In this document: piece by piece, positions 37,055-51,367 of the stretch
How the letters are laid out: the number at the start of each line of letters is the position of its first letter
Position numbering within the stretch: the stretch's first letter is position 1
Assembly: GCF_988243305.1 (NCBI RefSeq)
Contig: NZ_OZ547136.1
Direction: 5' to 3' (one strand)
Length of the DNA stretch: 64,000 nt
Made by a program: the position numbers and the translations under genes
Notes under the pieces: model-generated
The model's input: the letters and a program-made list of their open reading frames with translations, nothing else
Database searches by the model: none
What the model was told of the DNA's origin: nothing

Positions 37055-37210
37055 CAGGGAAAGATTACGCAACGCTGCTTTTTTGTATTGAACGATTCGC
37101 ATTTTATGTTTAAAAATTGCGATATTCCTTATTTCCTGAAGCTGTTTTTATTGCTTATACATGATCAAATACTCCTTACATAATTAAGGAGAACAAAATG
37201 GAACTTAATA
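37055..37210 (+). repeat. 5'-terminal remnant of an H-repeat (ISAs1-family) element
   Basis: About 155 bp near-identical to the left ends of the elements at 42289 and 46943, including the terminal inverted repeat CAGGGAAAGATTACG and the first 4 codons of the transposase (ATGGAACTTAA), then divergence. Confidence 0.8.
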
Positions 37211-37348
37211 CACGCCAACAATTTGTATTACTTAAATAGACCAGTGAAGGTACGCATCAGAACATCCGGTGAAGTGATTAATATTTCGTTGAATATTTCT
37301 CCCGATTTTTGAAACCTGCTGCTGTAGAAATTCTGAACAGGAGGAATT

Positions 37349-37633
37349 ATGCCTTTAGCAGCCAAACTCACCGACAAAGGCACCCAGCACGACGGTTATT
37401 ACGAGACCGTCATCACCGCCGGGTCATCCACCGTCTTTATCGATGGTCTTCCCGCAGCCCGTCAGGGAGATCCGCTGACGCCGCATGCTAAACCGAAGCA
37501 TCCCCCTCATCCCCGTAAAATCGCCAGAGGTTCTTCAACCGTCTTTATTGACGGCCTGCCCGCCGCCAGAAGCGGTGATGCTGTTGACTGCGGCGGCGTG
37601 GTTATTGGTGGCGGTACGGTAAATATAGGCTGA
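37349..37633 (+). CDS. PAAR-domain protein (T6SS spike tip)
   Basis: 94-aa ORF with repeated GSSTVFIDGLPAARxGD motifs (PAAR motif); strong AGGAGG RBS; 18 nt upstream of vgrG. Confidence 0.85.
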   Translation: MPLAAKLTDKGTQHDGYYETVITAGSSTVFIDGLPAARQGDPLTPHAKPKHPPHPRKIARGSSTVFIDGLPAARSGDAVDCGGVVIGGGTVNIG

Positions 37634-37651
37634 TATGTCTGAGAGGTATTT

Positions 37652-39616
37652 ATGTCCTTAAAAGGTCTTCGCTTTACGCTGGAGGTTGACGGCCAGGAGC
37701 CGGACACCTTTGCAGTGGTGAATTTCAGGTTAATCCAGAACCAGTCATATCCGTTTGTGATGAGTGTGGATGTTGCCAGCGACTCTTTTATGCAGACGGC
37801 GGAGATGCTGCTGGAGAAGAAGGCGACACTGACCATCTGGCAGGGCGCAGTGGCGCAGCGTTATGTCACCGGCGTGGTGGCGGGTTTTGGCATGCAGGAG
37901 AATAACGGCTGGCAGATGCGTTATCACCTGCGTATTGAGCCGCCGTTATGGCGGTGCGGGCTGCGGCAGAACTTTCGTATCTTCCAGCAGCAGGATATCC
38001 GGACGATATCGGCCACGTTACTGAACGAGAACGGCGTCACGGAGTGGACGCCGCTGTTTTATGAGGACCATCCGGCGCGGGAGTTCTGTGTCCAGTACGG
38101 AGAGAGCGACCTGGCGTTTCTGTCCCGGCTGTGGGCGGAGGAGGGAATTTTCTTCTTTGAGCGGTTTGCGGCGGACAGTCCGGAGCAGAAGCTGACGCTG
38201 TGCGACGATGTGGCGGGGCTGTCACAGGCGGGGGAGTTTCCGTTTAACCCGGACACATCGGCAGGAGCGGAGACGGAGTGTGTCAGTATGTTCCGTTATG
38301 AGGCGCATGTCCGCCCGTCATCGGTGCAGAGCCAGGATTACACGTTTAAGGTGCCGGACTGGCCGGGGATGTATGAGCAGCAGGGTGAGAACCTGAACGG
38401 ACAGCTGGCGCAGTATGAGATATTTGATTATCCGGGAAGGTACAAGGATGAACAGCACGGCAAGGATTTCACGCTGTACCGGATGGAGAGCCTGCGCAGT
38501 GATGCGGAAAAGGCCACAGGGCAGAGTAATTCACCGAAGCTGTGGCCGGGAACGCGGTTTACGCTGACGGGGCATCCGCAGAAGATGCTGAACCGTGAAT
38601 GGCAGGTGGTACAGAGCATACTGTCAGGAAGCCAGCCGCAGGCGCTGCACGGCAGCCAGGGGAGAGGAACCACGCTGGGCAATCAGTTAGAGGTGATACC
38701 GGCGGACCGGACGTGGCGTCCACGGCTGCAAAGCAAACCGAAGGTGGACGGGCCACAGAGCGCCATTGTCACCGGTCCTGCGGGAGAGGAAATCTTCTGC
38801 GACGAACACGGACGTGTGCGAGTGCAGTTTCACTGGGACAGGTATAACCCGGCAACGGAGGCGAGTTCGTGCTGGGTGAGGGTGTCACAGGCGTGGGCGG
38901 GGCCGGGGTTCGGTAACCTGGCGATACCGCGGGTGGGCCAGGAGGTGATTGTTGATTTCCTGAACGGCGACCCGGACCAGCCGATAATCATGGGACGGAC
39001 ATACCATGAGGACAACCGTTCACCGGGGAGTCTGCCGGGGACGAAGACGCAGATGACGATACGGTCGAAGACCTATAAAGGTAGCGGATTTAACGAGCTG
39101 CGGTTTGAAGACGCCACCAGTAATGAGCAGGTGTATATCCATGCGCAGAAGAACATGGATACGGAGGTGCTCAACGACCGGACAACGGATGTGAAACATG
39201 ACCATACGGAAACCATCGGTAACAACCAGAAGATAACGGTGGTGAAGGGCCAGACGGTGAATGTGGGGAGCAAAAAGGAAGGTGGTCATGACCAGAAAGT
39301 GACAGTGGCGAATGACCAGACCATTACGGTACAAAACGATCAGCGGCTGGATGTTACCCACGATCGTCACAAGGATGTAGGGAACGATCAAATCAGTAAG
39401 ATAATAGGAAAAGATACCGAAGAAGTCGTGAAATCCCAGGATATTAAAGTTGGAGAAGATTACAGCCTGACAGTTACCAACAGCCTCACCATTAAAGTCG
39501 GTGAATGCTTACTGAAAATGAATAAGGACGGTACTATCATTCTCAATGGTAAAAGTATCCAGATTGAAGGAAAAGATAAAATCAATATTTTCGGCGCAGA
39601 TATTGATCTGGATTAA
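37652..39616 (+). CDS. vgrG: VgrG spike protein (T6SS)
   Basis: 654-aa ORF; characteristic VgrG N-terminus (MSLKGLRFTLEVDG...FAVVNFRL...) and C-terminal Val/Gly-rich beta-helical repeats (VKGQTVNVG..., TVQNDQRLDV...). Confidence 0.9.
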   Translation: MSLKGLRFTLEVDGQEPDTFAVVNFRLIQNQSYPFVMSVDVASDSFMQTAEMLLEKKATLTIWQGAVAQRYVTGVVAGFGMQENNGWQMRYHLRIEPPLWRCGLRQNFRIFQQQDIRTISATLLNENGVTEWTPLFYEDHPAREFCVQYGESDLAFLSRLWAEEGIFFFERFAADSPEQKLTLCDDVAGLSQAGEFPFNPDTSAGAETECVSMFRYEAHVRPSSVQSQDYTFKVPDWPGMYEQQGENLNGQLAQYEIFDYPGRYKDEQHGKDFTLYRMESLRSDAEKATGQSNSPKLWPGTRFTLTGHPQKMLNREWQVVQSILSGSQPQALHGSQGRGTTLGNQLEVIPADRTWRPRLQSKPKVDGPQSAIVTGPAGEEIFCDEHGRVRVQFHWDRYNPATEASSCWVRVSQAWAGPGFGNLAIPRVGQEVIVDFLNGDPDQPIIMGRTYHEDNRSPGSLPGTKTQMTIRSKTYKGSGFNELRFEDATSNEQVYIHAQKNMDTEVLNDRTTDVKHDHTETIGNNQKITVVKGQTVNVGSKKEGGHDQKVTVANDQTITVQNDQRLDVTHDRHKDVGNDQISKIIGKDTEEVVKSQDIKVGEDYSLTVTNSLTIKVGECLLKMNKDGTIILNGKSIQIEGKDKINIFGADIDLD

Positions 39617-39631
39617 TCTGGAGAAATTAAC

Positions 39632-40573
39632 ATGAATATTGAAAATGAAACTGGTTTTCCTCACTTTCAGTTCGAAAAAGTGGGATATTATGGTGAGTTA
39701 TTCACAGTAGTGGTAGTTAATCAGACATTTGATTTTTCATATAGCGGCGGTCTCTGTCTGATTGCGGATGAGCAGCGACTGCCACTGATGACCGACTCCT
39801 GGTACGGCGAACCGGAAAGCAGCAGTCTTAAAACAGCAACCGATTTGGTTTGCAGAAAAGTCAGGGCAGATGTTTTATTAAATGGACACGCATGGCATGC
39901 CACCGGGGAAACCACTCGATGGCAGGCCAGTTTACAGGTGGGTAATCTTCAGCGCCAATTTGATATATGTGGCCCTTGCCAATGGCAATATATATCTAAC
40001 CGCTGGCAACTTAGCGAACCTGAATTAACTGATCGGGTACTGTTACGCCATGAACTGGCGTCAGCCAGTGAATTTAATCCTGTAGGCATTGTTATTCCCT
40101 CCCTGATAACGCTTGGCGATAAATCGCCCTGTCCAGCTCCACAGTTATCTGCCTCACCAGGAGCTATTTGCCGTAGCTGGCCTTCACGATTGCGCTATGC
40201 CAGAGGTTTTACAGAACAGTGGCAAAAGACTGTTCAACCTTTTTATCCAGATGAATTCGATTTTGCATTCATGAATTATTCTCCACCAGAACAACAATAC
40301 GATGGTTATTTAATTGGCAATGAAAAAATTATATTGAACGGCCTGTTACCTTCTAAAATGGAACAAACTTGTTTCCTTCCAGATATTAGACTATTGGCGT
40401 ATTTGTTTTACCGCTCTGATAAAAACGTAGAACTGCGCCCATTGTTGGCTGACACACTGACCATCCACACAGACGATGAGCAACTAACACTACTCTGGCG
40501 CTTAACGCTCCCCGTGGATTCTCTTCCACAACGTATTGTTTTGACGACGGAGCAGAGGGGACCTCATGGCTGA
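39632..40573 (+). CDS. candidate T6SS adaptor/chaperone (DUF2169-like by position and size)
   Basis: 313-aa ORF between vgrG and a PAAR-like effector, overlapping the effector start by 8 nt; family assignment rests on synteny, not on a recognised motif. Confidence 0.5.
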   Translation: MNIENETGFPHFQFEKVGYYGELFTVVVVNQTFDFSYSGGLCLIADEQRLPLMTDSWYGEPESSSLKTATDLVCRKVRADVLLNGHAWHATGETTRWQASLQVGNLQRQFDICGPCQWQYISNRWQLSEPELTDRVLLRHELASASEFNPVGIVIPSLITLGDKSPCPAPQLSASPGAICRSWPSRLRYARGFTEQWQKTVQPFYPDEFDFAFMNYSPPEQQYDGYLIGNEKIILNGLLPSKMEQTCFLPDIRLLAYLFYRSDKNVELRPLLADTLTIHTDDEQLTLLWRLTLPVDSLPQRIVLTTEQRGPHG

Positions 40574-41699
40574 AAATCATATTGGTTGTCGTGAATCGAA
40601 GTACGTTGCGATATGTATTGCGCCTGATGTCTGCAAGGTTGGTGATGCGATAGTGCCGTTTGACAGCTTTCAGAACCTGACACATGAGAAAATTTATATC
40701 AGCAATGTCAGGGCACGGGGCAATCCAATACTGACCGTGGACTGTATTATTGCAGGTACACGAAGTAATGCCGGGAAAGGTGTCAGTTCTGGCACCAGTC
40801 TGGGCAGCGGTGACTGCCGGATACTGACAGGCGTGGATCATATAAAGTGCAAGGGAAAGCCGGTAGCCAGGAATCTTTCGCTGGTTGCCATGAATAATGA
40901 TAATACTGTTGGAAAACTGTATACCCAGACAAACCCGCCAAATCAGATAATACCTGTTAAAGAATCATCGCTTTGGGCCAAGTATCTGGAACTGCAAATA
41001 CAACAGCAAGAGTTTGAGCTTGAGTCCAAAAAGCAAGAAGCAGATGCAATGATAGGATTAGGCAAGGCATTTATTAATGGCTGGTATATGTTGGGTGCAT
41101 TGATTGCCAAAGGTCAGATGCAAAATGACATTGCCCAAATGGAAAGTAATATTGCTCTGGCGAGAGGGTTGGGGATGGATACCCAAATTATGGAGCGGGC
41201 GAATGAGACCAACAGGGAGGTAATGGAAACTATTGATCCTAGAGAGCCATTGTTGAAACCTGCCAATGAAACCCAAGCAATGGCGATGGAGGTTGAGCCA
41301 TGGCTGGAACTTATGACCGGGGTTGGAGCACTGGTGAAAGGTTTGGTCAAGTTTTCAGCGAAGTTTGCAATAAAATCGGTTGGCAGAATGGGGAGGAGCG
41401 GTGCTAAAATTGTGCTGGATGCAAATGGATTGCCTATTCCTGTTCCTCCAAGCGTTGGCGCTGCGGGAAGAGTTCCGAGAGTATTACAAACTGGAGGTAA
41501 TACTCTTGAGGCAAGAACTGCCAGGGAGTTAAATGAATTTTTTGGTAAAAATATTAACAGGAGAGAATGGGGGAAAGCTTTAGAAAAGTTGAAAAAAGAT
41601 TTACGCTTACGAGGTGATCACCATGGTCGAATACTTGATAATGGTGATTATATTGATGACTCAGGAAATATTTTAGGAAACATAGAAGATTATTTATGA
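40566..41699 (+). CDS. candidate T6SS effector with N-terminal PAAR-like (DUF4150-type) domain and unassigned C-terminal domain
   Basis: 377-aa ORF; N-terminal Cys-containing module (VAICIAPDVCKVGDAIVPF...GKPVARNLSLVAMNNDNTVG); helical linker; divergent C-terminal ~110 aa; AT-rich. Confidence 0.6.
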   Translation: MAENHIGCRESKYVAICIAPDVCKVGDAIVPFDSFQNLTHEKIYISNVRARGNPILTVDCIIAGTRSNAGKGVSSGTSLGSGDCRILTGVDHIKCKGKPVARNLSLVAMNNDNTVGKLYTQTNPPNQIIPVKESSLWAKYLELQIQQQEFELESKKQEADAMIGLGKAFINGWYMLGALIAKGQMQNDIAQMESNIALARGLGMDTQIMERANETNREVMETIDPREPLLKPANETQAMAMEVEPWLELMTGVGALVKGLVKFSAKFAIKSVGRMGRSGAKIVLDANGLPIPVPPSVGAAGRVPRVLQTGGNTLEARTARELNEFFGKNINRREWGKALEKLKKDLRLRGDHHGRILDNGDYIDDSGNILGNIEDYL

Positions 41700-42175
41700 T
41701 TAAGAATATACAATCAAGGCTTACCCCGATATCTCATGAATATCCAAGTTGTGATGAGTGCTATGCTAGCCTCTTGATTTACACAGGTAATACTCACCCT
41801 AATGAAATAAGTATTCACTTAGAACTTGAGCCAACATCAATTAATATAAAAGGAGATGAAATTATTACTCTATCGGGAAAGAAAAGATATGCAAAAAATT
41901 CATATTGGATGCTCTCGTCAGAAAATCTAGTGAACTCGAAAGATATTCGAGAACATCTGGATTGGCTACTTCACAAACTTGGACCTAAATCATCAAATAT
42001 TGCAAAATTGCAAGCATTAGAAAATATTTCAATGGGTATTGACTGTACCTGGAGATCATTGAATTGGCACGGTGGGCCAACTTTATGGCCTGAGCAGATG
42101 AAAATAATGGCTAATCTTGGATTGGAGTGTTCATTTGATATTTATTTCGTCGGCAATGAAGATGGCAATCTTTAA
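41696..42175 (+). CDS. candidate cognate immunity protein (cytoplasmic)
   Basis: 159-aa ORF, ATGA overlap with effector stop, no signal peptide, AT-rich; role inferred from position only. Confidence 0.45.
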   Translation: MIKNIQSRLTPISHEYPSCDECYASLLIYTGNTHPNEISIHLELEPTSINIKGDEIITLSGKKRYAKNSYWMLSSENLVNSKDIREHLDWLLHKLGPKSSNIAKLQALENISMGIDCTWRSLNWHGGPTLWPEQMKIMANLGLECSFDIYFVGNEDGNL

Positions 42176-42288
42176 TTATTGCTCGCAAATTTTTAATAAA
42201 CAAATAGCACAATAAAATACTCGGTATCTATGGTATATACCTAATAAACAAGGGCAGGGAAAGATCATCAGAAGTACACTTTTTGTAC

Positions 42289-43580
42289 CAGGGAAAGATC
42301 ACGTAACGCTGCTTTTTTGTACTAAATAATTCGCATTTTATGTTTAAAAATTGAGATATTCCTCATTACCTGAAGCTGTTTTTTATTGAGTATACATGAT
42401 CAAATACTCCTTACATAATTAAGGAGAACACAATGGAACTTAAAAAATTGATGGAACATATTTCTATTATCCCCGATTACAGACAAGCCTGGAAAGTGGA
42501 GCATAAATTGTCGGATATTCTACTGTTGACTATTTGTGCCGTTATTTCTGGTGCAGAAGGCTGGGAAGATATAGAGGATTTTGGGGAAACACATCTCGAT
42601 TTTTTAAAACAATACGGTTATTTTGAAAATGGTATTCCTGTTCACGATACCATCGCCAGAGTTGTATCCTGTATCAGTCCTGCAAAATTTCACGAGTGCT
42701 TTATTAACTGGATGCGAGATTGCCATACTTCAGATGATAAAGACGTCATCACAATTGATGGAAAAACGCTCCGGCACTCTTATGACAAGAGTCGCCGCAG
42801 GGGAGCGATTCATGTCATTAGTGCGTTCTCAACAATGCACAGCCTGGTCATCGGACAGATCAAGACGGATGAGAAATCCAATGAGATTACAGCTATCCCA
42901 GAACTTCTTAACATGCTGGATATTAAAGGAAAAATCATCACAACTGATGCGATGGGTTGCCAGAAAGATATTGCAGAGAAGATACAAAAACAGGGAGGTG
43001 ATTATTTATTCGCTGTAAAAGGAAACCAGGGGCGGCTAAATAAAGCCTTCGAGGAAAAATTTCCGCTGAAAGAATTAAATAATCCAGAGCATGACAGTTA
43101 CGCAATTAGTGAAAAGAGTCACGGCAGAGAAGAAATCCGTCTTCACATTGTTTGCGATGTCCCTGATGAACTTATTGATTTCACGTTTGAATGGAAAGGT
43201 CTGAAGAAATTATGCGTGACAGTCTCCTTTCGGTCAATAATAGCAGAACAAAAGAAAGAGCCAGAAATGACGGTCAGATATTATATCAGTTCTGCTGATT
43301 TAACCGCAGAGAAGTTCGCCACAGCAATCCGAAACCACTGGCACGTGGAGAATAAGCTGCACTGGCGTCTGGACGTGGTAATGAATGAAGACGACTGCAA
43401 AATAAGAAGAGGAAATGCCGCAGAATTATTTTCAGGGATACGGCACATCGCTATTAATATTTTAACGAATGATAAGGTATTCAAGGCAGGGTTAAGATGT
43501 AAGATGCGAAAAGCAGCCATGGACAGAAACTACCTGGCGTCAGTCCTTGCTGGGAGCGGGCTTTCGTAATCTTGCCCTGG
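42289..43580 (+). mobile_element. H-repeat element (ISAs1-family), intact copy
   Basis: About 1.3 kb bounded by imperfect terminal inverted repeats (left CCAGGGAAAGATCACG, right CGTAATCTTGCCCTGG) enclosing one 378-aa transposase ORF. Confidence 0.8.
42433..43569 (+). CDS. H-repeat-associated protein / ISAs1-family transposase (YdcC/YhhI-like)
   Basis: 378-aa [35 protein letters not shown]... matching recalled E. coli H-repeat proteins. Confidence 0.88.
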
Positions 43581-43916
43581 CAGGAGCATAAGACGACGGG
43601 GAACCATGTCAGCCTGGTGGAGGGAAAGCACAGTCTGGAGGTGAAAGGCGATCTGGCGAGGAAGGTGAGTGGCACGCTGGGGATAAAGGTGGACGGGGAT
43701 ATCGTGCTGGAGAGCTGCAGCCGGATAAGCCTGAAGGTGGGCGGTTCGTTTATCGTTATTCAGTCGGGCGGTGTGGATATAGTGGGGCCGAAGATAAATC
43801 TTAATGGTGGGGGGAGTCCGGGGACACCGGTACCGACACTGCAACCCACTGTCCTGAACACTTTAGTCACTAATGATACGGATAGTAATACTGATGATGA
43901 TATCGGTAATGATTAG
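43581..43916 (+). pseudogene. vgrG 3'-terminal remnant
   Basis: GC-rich frame encoding a VgrG C-terminal beta-helix tail (VSLVEGKHSLEVKGDLARKVSGTLGIKVDGDIVLES...GGVDIVGPKINLNGGGSPG) begins directly at the H-repeat right end with no ATG; table call uses a TTG inside the IR. Confidence 0.8.
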
Positions 43917-44087
43917 ACCAGAGTGAAGTTCATGTTCTCGTAGCGGGATAATCATTCAGATAAAGATAACGGATGACGGTAGTAATAATAATACAATAAT
44001 ACTGTGATTTTCTGCTTTCTAAGCAGAGATGCTCTGTGAATGAATAATTCATACTCGTTACATGTTTTATAATCTTAATAAGGACTA

Positions 44088-46166
44088 TTGATAATGATAA
44101 TCAGCCCTCCAATATTGCATGCGCATATAGACACTGAAAAAGACTCTGACTGGGTAAACAGAATGATGTCTGTTGATCCAGAGAGAAATTTCCCAATGAA
44201 TAGCGGTCGTTCTTGGCATGGTGGAGTTCATTTGAACGGCAATCTGTCAGAGACTGTTAGGTGTATTGCCGATGGGAAGGTTATTTCAATACGCCAGCCA
44301 GAACCAGCGAAAAATACAGTTCCCCCGTTAAATTATAACGGAGTTACGGATAAAGGCTATGTTCTGATAAAACATGAAACAGAAATCGGTAGTGGAGAAG
44401 AGGGTAAAATCGTCTATTACTCATTATATATGCACCTGAGAAGCATTGACAGTAATGTGCAGCCGGGAAACACGCTATACCGGAAAGAACCGGTTGGTGC
44501 AGCAGGGATGGTGGACGGACAGAACGCCTTTCATTTTCAGATTTTTTGTGATGATGAAAACATTCAGAAAATCACAGGAAGAATATCACCGGAAACAGAC
44601 CTGAATAAAGATGGACGAACTAATGTGGTTTACGGTGATAGTCATTTTTATCTCCCTACCGGAACACCGATTTATGGGGACATGCCGGAAGAAAACTCGC
44701 TTGCGAACAACAGTCCGGTACAAAGAACCAGCGTGCCATTGTATGTCACAATGAGTTTTGATAAAGGCAATTGTACGATGGTGACGCGTCAGCAGCATGA
44801 AGTGCTGAGTGATTCCTATACTGAAGTAGGTTCTCCCTTGATTAATGCTGATGGTAAGGATTATGAATACAATCTCTATTCCTACGCGCTGCAACTCTAT
44901 CCGAAAAGCCCAAGTGCCGGTTATGAGATGCTGCGTTTTGGTCGGGTTGTTAATACAGAATATGAAGAATTAGTCCCGGCGGATGCGCCGCTGTGGAGAA
45001 CAATCAATACGCCACAGGGTAAAGGCGTTGTTAACTTAGGGGCGAGAGATATCAGGGTTTACAGCGACGGTGATTTTCCACACTGGACAGGGTGGAAACT
45101 GGTGAACGATGATGCGGACACCAACAGCCAGTGCAATTCACCAACAATCCTGTGTACAACCCGCAATGACCTAAGTCGGATGATTTGTCATTTTCCGCTA
45201 GAATGGGACAGCGCCACCGTGGAATCACGGTTTGAGTGGCTGAAATCACCCAATGACGTATTGAGTAAGCCGATGACAGAGCCTGACCTGGATTTGCTGA
45301 TAGAACACTGTAAGGCGCTTTGTTTGGTAGAGAATCCGTTACCTGCCAGGCGTGTATGGCATTTTGATCCCAGGCAGTTTATTGCACATTTCAGGAAATG
45401 TGGATGGTTAGGAGAAAATGATATTATAAGTGTGGTAAGACGTTATCAAAATGCTTATCCCATGACATCAGAACTTACAAGACCATTAAGTAAAGACACT
45501 CTAATTGAGCGGATTACTAGCCAAGGACAAAATAGCAGTGGTGAGATGATAAGACCTGCAGGGTTGAAAAATGAACTGTCAAAGTCACTAAGGAAGTACT
45601 TAATTACAACCCCATTGCGGATTGCGCATTATTTCGGTCAGATGGCGAGAGAAACAGGCAGATTTTCGTCTTTTATAGAGAATGGTGATTTGAGTTATTT
45701 TGATATGTATGAGCCAGGAACAGAACAGGGACTTAAGCTTGGAAATAATGTTGTTGGTGATGGTGCAAGATTTAAAGGCAGAGGTACCATACATCTAACT
45801 GGTCGTGAGAATTATAGAAATTATGGAAAGTATAGAAATCCGTCAGATGATGATTTTTTTACTACAGGACCCAATAACCAACTCCCAGTTGAAAATGCCT
45901 ATTTTTCTTGCGATGCCGGGGGATACTTTTGGGCAAGTAAGCAAAAATACATAATGGTAAGCCATCGATTGACACCTAGTGGTAGTTTAGGCGTTAATTA
46001 TTGGGCGGATAAAGGATGTAGTTTGTCACATGCCAGAGAAGTTACACGGCGAATAAACCCAGCAGCAGATGGCTTCGATTTAGTACGTTGGCCAGCATTT
46101 GAGCATTCTTGGTATGTATTGAATGATGAAATAACACCTCCACTTAATTACATAAGGATTGTTTAA
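44088..46166 (+). CDS. predicted two-domain peptidoglycan hydrolase: M23/LytM-like N-terminal domain plus GH19-like (lysozyme/chitinase-family) C-terminal domain; candidate T6SS cargo effector
   Basis: 692-aa AT-rich ORF. N-terminal region follows the M23 motif order (WHGGVHL, ADGKVISI, GYVLIKHE, YYSLYMHL, NAFHFQIF). C-terminal region carries GH19 hallmarks (YFGQMARETGRF and KGRGTIHLTGRENYRNYG). Start codon uncertain. Confidence 0.6.
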   Translation: MIMIISPPILHAHIDTEKDSDWVNRMMSVDPERNFPMNSGRSWHGGVHLNGNLSETVRCIADGKVISIRQPEPAKNTVPPLNYNGVTDKGYVLIKHETEIGSGEEGKIVYYSLYMHLRSIDSNVQPGNTLYRKEPVGAAGMVDGQNAFHFQIFCDDENIQKITGRISPETDLNKDGRTNVVYGDSHFYLPTGTPIYGDMPEENSLANNSPVQRTSVPLYVTMSFDKGNCTMVTRQQHEVLSDSYTEVGSPLINADGKDYEYNLYSYALQLYPKSPSAGYEMLRFGRVVNTEYEELVPADAPLWRTINTPQGKGVVNLGARDIRVYSDGDFPHWTGWKLVNDDADTNSQCNSPTILCTTRNDLSRMICHFPLEWDSATVESRFEWLKSPNDVLSKPMTEPDLDLLIEHCKALCLVENPLPARRVWHFDPRQFIAHFRKCGWLGENDIISVVRRYQNAYPMTSELTRPLSKDTLIERITSQGQNSSGEMIRPAGLKNELSKSLRKYLITTPLRIAHYFGQMARETGRFSSFIENGDLSYFDMYEPGTEQGLKLGNNVVGDGARFKGRGTIHLTGRENYRNYGKYRNPSDDDFFTTGPNNQLPVENAYFSCDAGGYFWASKQKYIMVSHRLTPSGSLGVNYWADKGCSLSHAREVTRRINPAADGFDLVRWPAFEHSWYVLNDEITPPLNYIRIV

Positions 46167-46170
46167 AACA

Positions 46171-46674
46171 ATGAATTTTAAAAAAACAATAATCACTTCG
46201 GTAGGTTTGATATTTATTTCATTCTCTTTTGTGGCAGAGTGCTCTCAACTCAAAAATTTGAATAATTACTCAGTGATGCTTTGTGGAAAAGTGTCAAGTA
46301 ATATCCTTGATGATATTGGTGGTTATAAAGAAAGAGATAAAAAATCCGAAATGGTAGATTTACTTATATTAATTAGTAATGACGAGCCTATCGGTGTTTC
46401 TGAGACCAAAGTGATTTCTAATGGTAAAATATATTTTAAGGGGGAAAGTACTATGAACTTGGATGCCTCATTCATTATGACAATAAATGGTGGAGTTCAT
46501 ACTGACACTGTCACTTATATATCAAAGAAGAATAAAATTATCGGGGGCTACTTTTATAATAATGAGAGTAAAACTGATAAGCTTAAGGAAGTATATATCT
46601 CAAACACAGGAACTGTATATCATATAAATATTGAAAGTGTCAGCGATGATAAATGTCTTGATAAATTTAAGTAA
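46171..46674 (+). CDS. candidate periplasmic immunity protein (signal peptide)
   Basis: 167-aa ORF from ATG 46171 (MNFKKTIITSVGLIFISFSFVAECSQ...), 4 nt after the hydrolase stop; cleavable Sec-type signal; very AT-rich. Confidence 0.45.
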   Translation: MNFKKTIITSVGLIFISFSFVAECSQLKNLNNYSVMLCGKVSSNILDDIGGYKERDKKSEMVDLLILISNDEPIGVSETKVISNGKIYFKGESTMNLDASFIMTINGGVHTDTVTYISKKNKIIGGYFYNNESKTDKLKEVYISNTGTVYHINIESVSDDKCLDKFK

Positions 46675-46942
46675 CGATAAGGCAAGGATGATTGATTGGG
46701 TTTAGTTAAGTTTCGAGAACAAATTTCCGCGGCAGAGAGTATAAATGTAGGGGCAAGAATGCTAAAATCGTGAAGTGCACCACAACTATAATTCCAGTTT
46801 ACTTTGTTTATTTGATTGTAATTTAACCATTAAATGATTAGGTTTTTTAGAAAAGGACGTCTGATGAATGTTTAAATTAATTTTGAATACATTTCAATTA
46901 TTTTGTTGTATGTTGGCAAGGTCAAATAAGACATAATTTAAT

Positions 46943-47645
46943 GGCAGGGAAAGATCATCGTAAGTACACTTTTTGTACTAAATAATTTGCATTTTATGTT
47001 TAAAAATTGAGATATTCCTCATCACCTGAAGCTGTTTTTTATTACTTATATATGATCAAATACTCCTTACATAAATAAGGAGAACAAAATGGAACTTAAA
47101 AAATTGATGGAACATATTTCTATTATCCCCGATTACAGACAAGCCTGGAAAGTGGAACATAAATTATCGGATATTCTACTGTTGACTATTTGTGCTGTTA
47201 TTTCTGGTGCAGAAGGATGGGAAGATATAGAGGATTTTGGGGAAACACATCTCGATTTTTTGAAGCAATATTGTGATTTTGATAATGGTATTCCTGTTCA
47301 CGATACCATTGCCAGAGTTGTATCCTGTATCAGTCCTGAAAAATTTCATGAGTGCTTTATTAACTGGATGCTTGACTGCCATTCTTCAGATGATAAAGAC
47401 GTCATTGCAATTGATGGAAAAACGCTCCGGTACTCTTATGACAAGAGTCGTCGCAAGGGAGCGATTCACGTTATTAGTGTGTTCTCAATAATGCACAGTC
47501 AGATTCCTTGGAAGATCAAGACGAATGAAAAAAACAATGAGATTACAGCTGTTTCTGAATTTCTTAACATAATGGGTATTAAAGGAAAAATAATTGCACC
47601 GATCCAATGTGATACCAGAAAGACATCGCTAAGAAGATAGCTATA
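46943..47645 (+). mobile_element. H-repeat element, 3'-truncated and degenerate copy
   Basis: Left end and first ~550 bp of transposase gene near-identical to the intact copy, then frameshifted (..[20 protein letters not shown]) and lost about 50 nt upstream of the cyclase gene 3' end. Confidence 0.8.
47089..47640 (+). pseudogene. truncated H-repeat transposase
   Basis: 183-aa ORF identical in N-terminus to the 378-aa transposase but terminating early after indels. Confidence 0.8.
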
Positions 47646-47713: not shown

Positions 47714-48811
47714 TTATAAAGCCCATCGATTTCGCCCACTTTCTTTCGCCCGGTATAACGCAGCGTCGGCATCTGAAATAATTTGTTCAGCCGTTTTTGC
47801 GGGAGCAGAACAGGTAATCCCCTGACTAACCGTAACGAATGCATTAACAGCAGATGCCTGATGTGGGATAGCTGCCAGTTTAAGTTCTTGCTTCACTCTG
47901 GCTGCTACCGTCTTTGCTTCCGGCAATGTTGCATTAAAAAGTATGATGGCAAACTCTTCGCCACCATAACGGACAACAACATCCTCCGACTGGCGAGTTG
48001 AACGCTGTAGAGCGTCGGCAACTTGTATTAGACAACGATCCCCAGCAGGATGCCCGTAAGTGTCGTTGTAACGTTTAAAAAAATCGACATCCAGCATAAT
48101 AAGAGCAAATGACCCGCCGTTATCCATCGCGTCGTGTAAGATACTGTTCATTGCACGTCGGTTTGCTATCCCAGTTAAAGGATCACGATGTGCTAATGCA
48201 TCAAGGCGATTAATTAACTGGTTGTTATAACTGTTTTGTACCCATGCTTCTTCAAACCAACGTAACAAAATGAGTCGCCCACCATATAGCGCCAGTGAAA
48301 AAATACACCATACAACAGCAAAATGAATATTGATCTGTTGATTAAGCATAAGACTCGCTATTGGAGTGGTGAACCATAAGGGAATGACAAATGCGAGCAA
48401 TGATGGGGTATGGAAATAAAGTGCGACAACGCCACTAAGCATTAATAATACACATAGTGGATAAGCAAACTGCAGCGTCCAGTACGCAATAAAGTGATAA
48501 CTACACCATGACCATAGCAGGCTCAGGGCAACTAATAGCACCTGGATAGGTAATGTTTTTTGCCGAGGGATGAGTAGTAAACCACTGCAAATCAGCAGAA
48601 TACCCGTTGCAGATATATCAATAGAATGTATAAGGCTTTTTTCATTTAACCAGGGTGGAGTAAGGTCATTAAACAGAACACGGCGCAGCAAAATTATCAA
48701 TGCAAAACTGACATTGATAAAAGCAAACCATGGCAAACTAATTGTCATGCCGCGGATAACCATATCGCGGCGTGTTTGCCACGAGTGATGCGTTTTTCTT
48801 CTTTCAGCCAT
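47714..48811 (-). CDS. membrane-anchored diguanylate cyclase (GGDEF domain)
   Basis: 365-aa ORF: N-terminal multi-TM region and C-terminal GGDEF domain with intact RYGGEEF active-site motif; start codon not resolved. Confidence 0.8.
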   Translation of the reverse strand: MAERRKTHHSWQTRRDMVIRGMTISLPWFAFINVSFALIILLRRVLFNDLTPPWLNEKSLIHSIDISATGILLICSGLLLIPRQKTLPIQVLLVALSLLWSWCSYHFIAYWTLQFAYPLCVLLMLSGVVALYFHTPSLLAFVIPLWFTTPIASLMLNQQINIHFAVVWCIFSLALYGGRLILLRWFEEAWVQNSYNNQLINRLDALAHRDPLTGIANRRAMNSILHDAMDNGGSFALIMLDVDFFKRYNDTYGHPAGDRCLIQVADALQRSTRQSEDVVVRYGGEEFAIILFNATLPEAKTVAARVKQELKLAAIPHQASAVNAFVTVSQGITCSAPAKTAEQIISDADAALYRAKESGRNRWAL

Positions 48812-48857
48812 TTTTTAGCCAAATAAGGGCAGGAGACCTGCCCGATACAGAGTAAAA

Positions 48858-50834
48858 TTATGGTGTCACTATATTGAACCAAAATTCAAAATTATCCATA
48901 TAACCTAACAGCTCGTTGAGCTTTTCCGCATTGCCGGTAATTTTGACATCACCTTTGTCCGTGGCTTCTTTCAGCGTCTCTTCTTTCAGTACAATTTTGT
49001 TCAATACATCACGAGATAGAGAGATAGTGGCATCAGCCTCCGAAGCCTCTACACCAGCGGTATGATTGAGAACACCATTTTCAAGCTCTACCTTATAGGT
49101 GCCGCCATCTTCACCAAAATCGAAATTCAACACGGCTTTGGCATCTGCCGCTTTCTCACCATTAATATGGACGGCAAGATAATCAAAGAACATTTCTGGC
49201 GTCATTGCACGCACAGTGTCAGGGCTGGCAGTATTTGGTGTTGGTAATTTTTGTACGCCGTTACGCAATTCCTGTGCACCAGTGAGATAGAAATTACGCC
49301 ACGGCCCAGATTCAGCCTGATAGCCTAACTGCTCAAGCGCATCAGCTTCCAGATTTCTCGCTGCCTGGTTGTTTGGATCCGCAAACACCACCTTACTAAC
49401 AACTTGGGCAACCCAGCGGAAATTACCCTGGTCATAATCCTGTTTGGCTTTCTGTAAAATGGCATCAGCACCGCCCATATACTCGACGAATTTTTTTGCG
49501 CCTTCTTCTGGCGGTAGTTCATCAAGCGTCGCGGGGTTACCATCAAACCAGCCGAGATAAAGCACGTAAGTTGCTTTCACGTCATGACTTACCGAACCGT
49601 AATAGCCGCGATTCGCCCAGGTGTTAGCCAGTGAAGAGGGCAGTTTAAAGTTTGCGGCAATTTCATCACGGGTCATCCCTTGATTAGCCATGCGCAGAGT
49701 TTGATCATTGATGTAACGATACAAATCACGCTGGCTTTTAAGCAGTTTGACCACGTTATCGTTGCCCCAGGTTGGCCAGTGATGTTGAGCGAGAATAATC
49801 TCGGCTTTATCACCCCACAAATTGAGAGCTTCATTAATATATTTTGACCACGGCAGCGGTTGGCGAATTTTAGCCCCACGCAGCGAATAGGTGTTATGAA
49901 GGGTGTGCGTGACATCTTCAGCGGTTTCGATCAGTTTCTTTTCTTCAATAAACCACAGCATTTCAGAAGGCGCTTCAGAACCTGGCGCCATCAGGAAATC
50001 ATAAGTCAACCCGTCAATAGTTTCTTTTTGTCCGGTTTTGGTGATGTAGTTAGTAGGAGCAATCAACGTGACTGTTCCTGCTGAAGTAGTCGTTCCCAGT
50101 CCAGCCCCCACCTGGCCTTTAACATCAGGTTTCAATAAGTTGCCATACATATAACTGGCTCGTCGGCTCATCACATTGCCAGCCATAATATTTTCGGAAA
50201 CGGCTTCCTCCAAAAATCCGGCTGGCGCATAGATTTTAACTTTGCCTGATTTAACGTCAGCTTCATCAATTACGCCACGAACACCACCGTAGTGATCGAC
50301 ATGACTGTGTGTATAGATAACCGCCACTACCGGTTTTTTGCCGCGATTTTTGTAATAGAGATCCATACCCACTTTGGCTGTTTCTGCTGAAACAAGGGGA
50401 TCAACGACGGTAATACCCTCTTTGCCTTCAATGATGGTCATATTTGATAGATCGAGATTGCGAATCTGATAGACACCTTCAGTTACTTCGAATAACCCGC
50501 TGATATTTATCAGTTGCGCCTGACGCCATAAACTCGGATTCACCGTATCAGGGGCTTTATCGCCTTCTTTGATAAAAGCGTAATGTTGTGGATCCCAGAT
50601 AACATTCCCTTGTTCGCCCTTAATCACGTCTTGAGGGATAGGGGCAATAAAACCTTTATGGGCATCAGTAAAGTCAGTGTTATCGGCAAACGGCAACTGG
50701 TTGGAGAGTAAATTGTTTGCTTGTTGCGTGGCTGCGGTGGCGTCTTTAGGAGCTTCCGCCGCGAGGAGAGGTAAAGAACTGGTGGTGAATAATCCCGTTA
50801 TTAGCAGACTTTTAACGATATGATTAAGCTGCAT
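48858..50834 (-). CDS. alkyl/aryl-sulfatase, metallo-beta-lactamase fold (YjcS/SdsA1-like)
   Basis: 658-aa ORF with signal peptide (MQLNHIVKSLLITGLFTTSSLPLLAA) and MBL metal-binding motif THSHVDHYGG. Confidence 0.8.
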   Translation of the reverse strand: MQLNHIVKSLLITGLFTTSSLPLLAAEAPKDATAATQQANNLLSNQLPFADNTDFTDAHKGFIAPIPQDVIKGEQGNVIWDPQHYAFIKEGDKAPDTVNPSLWRQAQLINISGLFEVTEGVYQIRNLDLSNMTIIEGKEGITVVDPLVSAETAKVGMDLYYKNRGKKPVVAVIYTHSHVDHYGGVRGVIDEADVKSGKVKIYAPAGFLEEAVSENIMAGNVMSRRASYMYGNLLKPDVKGQVGAGLGTTTSAGTVTLIAPTNYITKTGQKETIDGLTYDFLMAPGSEAPSEMLWFIEEKKLIETAEDVTHTLHNTYSLRGAKIRQPLPWSKYINEALNLWGDKAEIILAQHHWPTWGNDNVVKLLKSQRDLYRYINDQTLRMANQGMTRDEIAANFKLPSSLANTWANRGYYGSVSHDVKATYVLYLGWFDGNPATLDELPPEEGAKKFVEYMGGADAILQKAKQDYDQGNFRWVAQVVSKVVFADPNNQAARNLEADALEQLGYQAESGPWRNFYLTGAQELRNGVQKLPTPNTASPDTVRAMTPEMFFDYLAVHINGEKAADAKAVLNFDFGEDGGTYKVELENGVLNHTAGVEASEADATISLSRDVLNKIVLKEETLKEATDKGDVKITGNAEKLNELLGYMDNFEFWFNIVTP

Positions 50835-51139
50835 CTTAAGCGTCTCCAGAATGGATTTTTATTGGGGGTAATTACGGATGAAAATTTTTAGTGAGGGCAA
50901 GAATAACTATAATGGGCGTTAACAAATTGGCAAGCCGGGAAATTGATGTTTTCTTAATGGCATGTTGGCGAAGAATATATTCTGCAAGTTAACGTTTTCA
51001 TTGGCGCTTTATTTAAAAGTGTGTAGTACAAATATGTACAATTTCAAGTAGGCATTATTGCCGTAAAAACGCATTACCGGACACACGACATTCACAACGT
51101 GTGTTAATTTTACTGACATCTTTCAAAAGGAGCACAATC

Positions 51140-51367
51140 ATGCCGCACATAGACATTAAATGTTTTCCGCGTGAACTGGACGAACAACAAAAAGCAGCAC
51201 TTGCTGCAGATATTACCGACGTTATTATTCGCCATCTGAACAGTAAAGATAGCTCGATAAGCATTTCTCTACAGCAGATTCAACCAGAATCTTGGCAAGC
51301 TATCTGGGATGCCGAAATCGCGCCCCAAATGGAGGCTTTGATAAAGAAACCCGGTTACAGCATGTAA
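51140..51367 (+). CDS. pptA: tautomerase PptA (4-oxalocrotonate tautomerase family)
   Basis: ORF from ATG 51140 ([13 protein letters not shown]...) with AAGGAG upstream; N-terminal Pro typical of tautomerases. Confidence 0.85.

What the first reader, a model, noticed from the sequence alone, without database searches (positions are those of the whole stretch)
37055..47645. Three H-repeat (ISAs1-family) copies bracket the two cargo modules
Seen in sequence: a ~155-bp left-end remnant at 37055-37210 retaining the IR and 4 codons of the transposase, an intact ~1.3-kb element at 42289-43580, and a 5' half with frameshifts at 46943-47645. The three left ends are about 85-95 percent identical by eye. 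Module 1 (PAAR to immunity) sits between the remnant and the intact copy; module 2 (vgrG remnant, hydrolase, immunity) sits between the intact copy and the truncated copy. Inference: H-repeats act here as portable homology for cassette gain, loss or shuffling of effector-immunity modules. H-repeats are known (established knowledge) to accompany Rhs elements in E. coli.
Basis: partly seen in the sequence, partly recalled or inferred. Interest (0 to 1): 0.55.

Follow-up and report, generated by a model that had tools for sequence, protein, structure and literature searches.

The report
H-repeat insertion sequences punctuating T6SS cassettes
Copies and relics of one insertion sequence (H-repeat/ISEc1) separate two type VI secretion toxin-immunity cassettes at the E. 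coli yncG-pptA locus, and other genomes show that crossovers in these copies, and equally in the conserved front of the vgrG genes, have joined and removed cassettes; this extends a known kind of IS-driven island turnover and is not a new mechanism.

Summary
Relic A is 37055-37208, intact copy B is 42289-43579, and the truncated, frameshifted copy C is 46945-47639. All are on the + strand and bracket the two cargo modules.

The locus is the E. coli yncG-pptA island, which is the RhsE/ydcC locus in K-12.

The "portable homology" idea is partly supported.
- Copy C is a chimera with a crossover inside the H-repeat.
- Two genomes (AST215, SC418) lack both modules. Module 1 is missing at a hybrid A/B-type H-repeat, and module 2 is cut off exactly at an H-repeat terminus.
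- In PS10-3 the inter-module and terminal copies share the same 312-bp internal deletion.

Three results limit the idea.
- The left edge of cargo variation always lies inside vgrG (about 39343-39366).
- Single-module genomes are exact vgrG x vgrG collapses of tandem arrays.
- CFT073 has tandem modules with no H-repeat between them.

Copy B's own junctions look transposase-made and destructive. It sits inside an older H-repeat and has removed PAAR2 and about 1.78 kb of vgrG2.

The association of H-repeats with Rhs loci is long known. Interest is modest.

The parts
37055..37208 (+). H-repeat relic A: left IR, 5' UTR and the first 11 nt of the transposase gene, fused to the leader of the PAAR gene.
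   Evidence: The same relic in the same context is found in 686 of 5426 complete E. coli genomes. In PS10-3 unit 2 the equivalent position holds a both-ended H-rpt (979 bp, with the 312-bp internal deletion) plus a 212-bp spacer.
37209..39343 (+). Conserved repeat block: the pre-PAAR leader, PAAR (37349-37633) and the 5' ~1.7 kb of vgrG1 (37652-39616). This is the second and longer set of portable homology.
   Evidence: It is 92-95% identical to the second units of PS10-3, MS1170 and CFT073. Exact unit1/unit2 hybrids occur in single-module genomes. NCBIfam identifies PAAR and VgrG.
39344..42254 (+). Cargo of module 1: the vgrG1-specific 3' end, DUF2169 adaptor (39632-40573), PAAR-like effector (40566-41699), DUF4279 immunity gene (41696-42175) and the downstream spacer.
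   Evidence: The immunity region is found in 120 genomes at 99% identity or more.
42255..42288 (+). 34-bp relic: nt 1-34 of the resident inter-module H-rpt, which has the type I left end.
   Evidence: It is identical to the first 34 nt of the PS10-3 inter-module copy and has the same left flank.
42289..43579 (+). Copy B: a full-length 1291-bp ISEc1-like H-repeat with a type II left end. The transposase ORF is 42433-43569.
   Evidence: The 40-nt type II left end occurs in 1400 genomes. Copy B is 93.6% identical to the PS10-3 inter-module copy over nt 155-532, so it is not derived from that copy.
43580..43916 (+). vgrG2 3' fragment (the last ~120 codons, with a premature stop), joined directly to the right terminus of copy B.
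   Evidence: It aligns from nt ~1784 of the full vgrG in PS10-3, 1504D004 and JX21CE8. This junction is found in only 3 of 5426 genomes.
44094..46674 (+). Cargo of module 2: M23 peptidase effector (44094-46166) and immunity gene (46171-46674).
   Evidence: The module is present in 19 genomes.
46945..47639 (+). Copy C: a chimeric, truncated, frameshifted H-repeat (nt 1-696). The left end is the type linked to module 2; from nt 242 at the latest it is the type linked to the GGDEF gene.
   Evidence: The truncated junction with the GGDEF gene covers at least 80% of the query in 343 genomes.
47714..50834 (-). GGDEF/sensor gene and alkyl sulfatase gene. This is the native right flank that replaces the 3' half of the H-rpt. 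It is deleted in K-12-type genomes, where an H-rpt right end is fused at 51050|51051.

Best explanation
This is the hypervariable yncG-pptA effector island of E. coli, the RhsE/ydcC locus of K-12. It is an array of units of the form PAAR - VgrG - (adaptor) - effector - immunity. Same-orientation copies and relics of the ISAs1-family insertion sequence H-repeat/ISEc1 punctuate the array.

Two dispersed direct repeats drive turnover by ordinary homologous recombination: the H-repeats (0.15-1.3 kb, 90-97% identical) and the conserved PAAR + vgrG 5' block (2.1 kb, 92-95% identical). H-repeat termini add transposase-type insertions and deletions.

In this window:
1. Relic A is an ancient, fixed relic.
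2. Copy B is an incoming full-length element. It sits after nt 34 of the older inter-module H-repeat, and its right terminus abuts vgrG2 nt ~1784. About 3.4 kb is therefore missing (the rest of the old H-repeat, the spacer, PAAR2 and 1.78 kb of vgrG2), and module 2 has lost its own spike genes.
3. Copy C is the product of a crossover inside the H-repeat. That crossover joined module 2 to a truncated H-repeat already resident next to the GGDEF gene.

What is shown: the anatomy, the chimeric copy, the hybrid junctions in other genomes and the vgrG-vgrG collapses. What is inferred: the direction of events, RecA dependence, transposase involvement, and cassette gain through H-repeats.
For: Copy C: the informative sites at nt 14-25 match the module-2-linked copies at 9 of 10 sites. 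The sites at nt 242-528 match the GGDEF-linked copies at 11 of 13 sites.

AST215 and SC418 have the structure yncG - hybrid H-rpt (relic-A-specific bases at nt 1-~46, B-like from nt ~64) - the same vgrG2 fragment (2 differences in 554 nt) - the first ~40 nt of M23, fused to nt 1 of an H-rpt - GGDEF. Both modules are missing at H-rpt sequences.

The inter-module and terminal copies of PS10-3 share the same deletion of nt 533-844.

Copy B junctions: the 34 nt are identical to the PS10-3 resident copy, and both IS termini are clean.

vgrG-mediated collapse: the 1504D004 unit is 100% identical to PS10-3 unit 1 over the first ~1500 nt and 100% identical to unit 2 over the last ~900 nt. PM06121 shows the same pattern against MS1170.

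H-rpt right termini are also fused at different points of the right flank: K-12 at window 51051 and EC958 at 51311.
Against: - No event was observed happening. The direction (loss versus gain) is argued from parsimony only.
- The type I / type II left-end difference in copy C is one short block (nt 13-25). It could reflect a short conversion patch and not a crossover that brought in module 2.
- The body of the first AST215 H-rpt differs by ~3% from copy B, so AST215 is not a simple one-step derivative of this exact sequence. Its flanks beyond the island also diverge by 1-13%.
- CFT073 shows that arrays can exist without an inter-module H-rpt.
- No target-site duplication was seen at any copy, so simple transposition is not documented anywhere at the locus.
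- The transposition mechanism of the ISAs1 family is unknown to me.
Confidence: 0.7

Rival explanations
1. The H-repeats are incidental IS debris that accumulates in a dispensable, horizontally exchanged island. Cassette turnover is driven only by the conserved PAAR-vgrG 5' block and the core flanks (yncG, pptA).
For: - All left breakpoints of cargo variation fall in vgrG.
- Single-module genomes are exact vgrG x vgrG hybrids.
- The right breakpoint of the M35 module lies inside M23 at 45933, not at the H-rpt.
- CFT073 has a tandem array without an H-rpt.
- Most copies are defective relics.
Against: - Copy C is chimeric.
- The hybrid A/B H-rpt lies exactly where module 1 is missing in AST215 and SC418.
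- The same 312-bp internal deletion is found at two different positions in the array.
- All copies have the same orientation, and all H-rpt sequence of the near-identical genome is concentrated at this one locus.
Confidence: 0.2
2. The cassettes are moved by the H-repeat transposase itself. This could be as compound transposons, or as IS26-like translocatable units that integrate next to an existing H-repeat.
For: - The flanking copies are in direct orientation.
- No target-site duplications were seen.
- In two cases an H-rpt terminus abuts an internal position of another H-rpt: window 42288|42289, and PM06121 L010 13295|13296.
- Copy B has an intact transposase gene.
- Several deletions end exactly at IS termini.
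Against: - Relics A and C have only left ends, so neither module is flanked by a usable pair of ends.
- The cassettes are found essentially only at this chromosomal locus and hardly at all on plasmids.
- According to a genome paper, H-rpt transposition has never been observed (PMC3032704).
- The ISAs1 transposase is unrelated to the IS6/IS26 family (my knowledge).
Confidence: 0.08

Closest known systems
Rhs elements of E. coli K-12 with their H-repeat (H-rpt, ISEc1) components, in particular RhsE-ydcD-yncI-ydcC.
   Same: The chromosomal locus is the same (yncG ... pptA). The IS is the same: copy B is 95.8% identical to K-12 ydcC. The H-rpt lies downstream of the toxin-immunity genes in the same orientation. 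Strain C1 carries an Rhs core between two ISAs1-family elements at this locus, a ~67%-identical element on the left and a truncated H-rpt on the right. The association is known (my knowledge of the work of Hill and colleagues from the 1990s; also mentioned in PMC3032704).
   Different: The cargo here is PAAR-VgrG-adaptor-effector-immunity cassettes, not an Rhs core with displaced C-terminal tips. The searchable library held no paper describing H-rpts between vgrG cassettes.
Effector-immunity module replacement and orphan immunity arrays in T6SS auxiliary clusters (the Vibrio cholerae model of Kirchberger et al. 2017, as summarised in PMC6730261), and Rhs C-terminal displacement (PMC2935791).
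   Same: The conserved 5' carrier gene (vgrG) acts as the left homology arm. Displaced immunity remnants are retained, such as the piece like window 45933-46339 found in M35 modules. Arrays collapse by recombination between the conserved parts.
   Different: Here an IS family supplies an additional, repeated right-hand homology and adds transposase-type deletions.
IS-mediated recombination at polysaccharide gene clusters by ISAs1-family elements (H-rpt in Salmonella rfb, IS1358 in Vibrio cholerae O-antigen loci). This is from my knowledge and was not checked here.
   Same: The IS family is the same, and the copies sit at the junctions of exchanged gene blocks.
   Different: The cargo and the locus are different. 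Those cases were inferred from single junctions, not from an array.
IS26 pseudo-compound transposons / translocatable units.
   Same: Direct-repeat IS copies bracket the cassettes, target duplications are absent, and deletions end exactly at IS termini.
   Different: The transposase family is different, the mechanism is untested, and most copies here are one-ended relics.

Membership tests
ISAs1-family insertion sequence (H-repeat / ISEc1) | Single DDE transposase matching the ISAs1 family profile. | tested here: met
   NF033564: E 3.5e-124 over profile positions 1-314 of 314 for copy B, and positions 1-142 for copy C.
ISAs1-family insertion sequence (H-repeat / ISEc1) | Length of about 1.2-1.5 kb with short terminal inverted repeats starting CAGGG (ISfinder description, from memory). 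| tested here: met
   Copy B is 1291 bp, and its terminal repeats match at 13 of 15 positions.
ISAs1-family insertion sequence (H-repeat / ISEc1) | Close nucleotide identity to the reference H-rpt of K-12 (ydcC). | tested here: met
   95.8% identity over 1292 nt. RefSeq names it an ISEc1 family transposase.
ISAs1-family insertion sequence (H-repeat / ISEc1) | Flanking target-site duplication from simple insertion. | tested here: not met
   No duplication was seen at copy B or at any of more than 8 other copies. This fits later rearrangement and does not affect family membership.
ISAs1-family insertion sequence (H-repeat / ISEc1) | Demonstrable transposition. | not testable with these tools
   A genome paper states that no transposition activity has been observed for H-rpt (PMC3032704).
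Compound (composite) transposon | Cargo flanked by two IS copies that together supply two usable outer ends, with a target duplication around the whole element. | tested here: not met
   Relic A and copy C keep only left ends, and no duplication is present.
Rhs element (Rhs core plus H-rpt composite) | A large Rhs/YD-repeat core ORF. | tested here: not met
   No Rhs core lies in window 36-48 kb. One is present at the same locus in C1 and, as a pseudogene, in K-12.
T6SS auxiliary (orphan vgrG) effector cluster | PAAR and VgrG genes followed by an adaptor, an effector and an immunity gene. | tested here: met
   NCBIfam gives PAAR (E 1.4e-46) and VgrG (E 4e-182). DUF2169, PAAR-like, DUF4279 and M23 are RefSeq annotations. 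Toxin and immunity functions were not tested.

The most novel reading that the evidence does not exclude
The H-repeat transposase may integrate preferentially at or into existing H-repeat copies, by an IS26-like targeted mechanism without target duplication. H-repeat plus cassette units would then behave as translocatable units, and this IS family would act as a dedicated capture system for polymorphic-toxin cassettes (Rhs and VgrG). Three observations fit this reading: the two H-rpt-in-H-rpt junctions, the universal lack of target duplications, and the strict direct orientation.
Probability: 0.1. Interest if true: 0.65.

Novelty: new member of a known kind. Interest (0 to 1): 0.33.

Why it matters
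The locus shows, with junction-level evidence, how an E. coli toxin-immunity arsenal is reshuffled. Two kinds of dispersed repeat, an old IS family and the conserved front of vgrG, let cassettes be joined, collapsed and lost. An active-looking IS copy can also disarm a cassette by removing its spike genes.

This gives a concrete set of predicted deletion products that can be looked for in culture. It also extends the 30-year-old link between H-repeats and Rhs elements to VgrG cassettes. It does not reveal a new mechanism.

Tried and rejected
- Compound transposon: rejected, because the relics are one-ended and there are no target duplications.
- Relic A as a domesticated promoter for PAAR-vgrG: the consensus promoter scan found no more sites than shuffled sequence (4 found versus 3.3 expected), so this is left open.
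- Plasmid carriage of the cassettes: only 27 of 72,556 plasmid records match, several are mislabelled chromosomes, and none covers 80% of the query.
- Search for target-site duplications or a shared target motif at H-rpt ends: nothing found.
- Literature search for a prior description of H-repeats between vgrG cassettes: nothing in the searchable library.
- AST215 as a simple clonal deletion derivative of this window: rejected, because the flanks and the IS body diverge by 1-13% and about 3% respectively while the island segments are nearly identical. The relationship holds for the segments, not for the genomes.
Full report
**Observation**

Repeat finding and alignment confirm three same-strand H-repeat (H-rpt) sequences.
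- Relic A, 37055-37208, is 154 bp: the left inverted repeat, the 5' UTR and ATGGAACTTAA.
- Copy B, 42289-43579, is 1291 bp. Its inverted repeats match at 13 of 15 positions. Its 378-aa ORF matches the ISAs1 transposase model over its full length.
- Copy C, 46945-47639, covers H-rpt nt 1-696 and has a frameshift.

The window holds no other copy. In the 99.8%-identical genome Z1323HEC0462 these are the only H-rpt 5' ends and the only 3' end in 4.87 Mb, so the clustering is far from chance.

**Where the locus is**

The flanks are yncG on the left and pptA-yddH-nhoA on the right. In K-12 this interval holds yncH, rhsE', ydcD, yncI and ydcC, which is the RhsE element with its H-repeats. Only 1 of 5426 complete genomes shares the whole arrangement.

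**Structural variants in other genomes**

| Strain | Arrangement between yncG and the right flank |
|---|---|
| PS10-3 | relic A, unit 1 (module 1), an H-rpt with an internal 312-bp deletion, a 212-bp spacer, unit 2 (PAAR, full vgrG, M23, immunity), a second H-rpt with the same 312-bp deletion, pptA |
| 1504D004, ES5 | module 2 only |
| A30 | a variant module 1, a 131-bp H-rpt left relic fused to a longer vgrG fragment, module 2 |
| MS1170 and many B2 strains | module 1, an IS630-family insertion, an H-rpt 3' part, an M35 unit |
| PM06121 | an M35 unit, an intact H-rpt, then the GGDEF and sulfatase genes |
| C1 | an Rhs core between a ~67%-identical ISAs1-family element and a truncated H-rpt |
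| EC958 (ST131) | the locus reduced to a single H-rpt between ansP and yddH |
| CFT073 | two tandem units with no H-rpt between them |

Every H-rpt at the locus has the same orientation in every genome inspected. Counts across the collection:
- Relic A in its context: 686 genomes.
- The truncated copy C / GGDEF junction: up to 343 genomes.
- Module 1: 120 genomes.
- Module 2: 19 genomes.

**Copy B**

Its left terminus follows 34 nt that are identical to the start of the PS10-3 inter-module H-rpt, with the same left flank. Its right terminus (CCCTG) abuts vgrG2 at about nt 1784 of 2148. Relative to PS10-3, about 3.4 kb is missing: the rest of the old H-rpt, the spacer, PAAR2 and the 5' part of vgrG2.

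Copy B is only 93.6% identical to the PS10-3 inter-module copy over nt 155-532 (93-94% across the comparable segments) and has the type II left end. That end is found in 1400 genomes, usually once per genome. Both junctions lie exactly at IS termini and there is no target duplication.

The best reading is insertion of an incoming element followed by an IS-terminus deletion, or two insertions followed by recombination between them. This is inferred, not shown. The H-rpt/vgrG-fragment junction exists in only 3 genomes. The effect is destructive: module 2 has lost its own spike genes.

**Copy C**

Its left flank and nt 14-25 match the H-rpt that follows module 2 in A30, 1504D004 and PS10-3 at 9 of 10 informative sites. 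Sites at nt 242-528 match the truncated H-rpt that lies next to the GGDEF gene in C1 and AST215 at 11 of 13 sites. The tail matches the GGDEF-linked fragment of PM06121 (99.2% over nt 533-700; only about 77% to other H-rpts). A crossover inside the H-rpt therefore joined module 2 to this right flank.

**Cassette loss**

AST215 and SC418 carry this structure: yncG, one H-rpt, the same vgrG2 fragment, the first ~40 nt of M23, a truncated H-rpt, then GGDEF.
- The first H-rpt has relic-A-specific bases up to about nt 46 and B-like bases from about nt 64. It is therefore a hybrid, located exactly where module 1 is missing.
- M23 is cut off at nt 1 of the second H-rpt.
- The retained island segments are nearly identical to the window (2 differences in 554 nt, and 1 in 2500 nt). 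The outer flanks and the IS body differ by 1-13% and about 3%.

The comparison is therefore of exchanged segments, not of clonal genomes.

**The other homology**

In every comparison the left limit of cargo variation lies inside vgrG, at window 39117-39475 and mostly 39343-39366. The single unit of 1504D004 is 100% identical to PS10-3 unit 1 for about 1500 nt, and then 100% identical to unit 2. PM06121 shows the same pattern against MS1170. These are exact vgrG x vgrG collapses that remove a module together with its H-rpt. M35 modules retain a piece of M23 and its immunity gene (like window 45933-46339), so some right breakpoints are not at the H-rpt either.

**Verdict**

H-repeats are real recombination substrates at this island. 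They are one of two sets of repeats that do this, and they also act as agents of erosion. Modules are not exchanged precisely at H-repeat ends.

The H-rpt/Rhs association is old knowledge, and IS-mediated rearrangement is textbook. I found no paper describing H-rpts between vgrG cassettes. I class the finding as a new member of a known kind, of modest interest.

**Unexplained**
- Two cases of an H-rpt terminus inside another H-rpt.
- The absence of target duplications everywhere.
- Two independent truncations just at the start of the transposase gene (nt 131 and nt 154).
- A 67%-identical ISAs1-family element inserted 5 bp from the relic A site in C1.

Noticed in passing
window 42255-42288; L010 13295|13296: Twice, an H-rpt terminus abuts an internal position of another H-rpt. 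In the window this is nt 34 of a resident copy. In PM06121 it is nt 564 of the GGDEF-linked copy. This could mean self-targeting or local hopping.
   Followed up: partly
L003 4207-6400 versus L004 units 1 and 2: The single-module strain 1504D004 is an exact hybrid. It is 100% identical to PS10-3 unit 1 and then 100% identical to unit 2, with the switch inside vgrG. This shows collapse of the array by vgrG x vgrG recombination. PM06121 shows the same pattern against MS1170.
   Followed up: yes
window 47714-50834 (minus strand) and 51050|51051: The GGDEF/sensor and alkyl sulfatase genes are the native right flank in up to 343 genomes. In K-12, A30 and 1504D004 an H-rpt right terminus is fused exactly at 51051, which deletes them. 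In EC958 the fusion is at 51311 and also removes pptA.
   Followed up: partly
window 45933-46339: The 3' end of M23 and the start of its immunity gene recur inside M35-peptidase modules of other strains (MS1170, CFT073, PM06121). This is an orphan-immunity remnant of cargo displacement.
   Followed up: partly
L014 6780-8100: Strain C1 has an ISAs1-family element only ~67% identical to H-rpt. Its left end lies 5 bp from the relic A left end (GCGTAT|CAGGG versus GCGTATTTAAT|CAGGG), and an Rhs core follows it. This may be an insertion hot spot.
   Followed up: partly
window 38000-39000: The window and Z1323HEC0462 differ at 24 positions across 36-48 kb, and 16 of them cluster in this 1 kb of vgrG1. 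This suggests a local conversion patch.
   Followed up: no
window 43893-43916: The vgrG2 fragment has a premature stop (GND* versus GNDETRVKFMFS* in the intact homologue), so it is decaying further.
   Followed up: no
window 37412-37567: A 48-nt internal direct repeat (75% identical) lies within the PAAR gene. It probably reflects the repeated PAAR motifs.
   Followed up: no
L002 9827-9957; window 37055-37208: Two independent H-rpt relics are truncated just before or at the transposase start (nt 131 and nt 154). Each lies upstream of T6SS coding sequence. The promoter scan was uninformative.
   Followed up: partly
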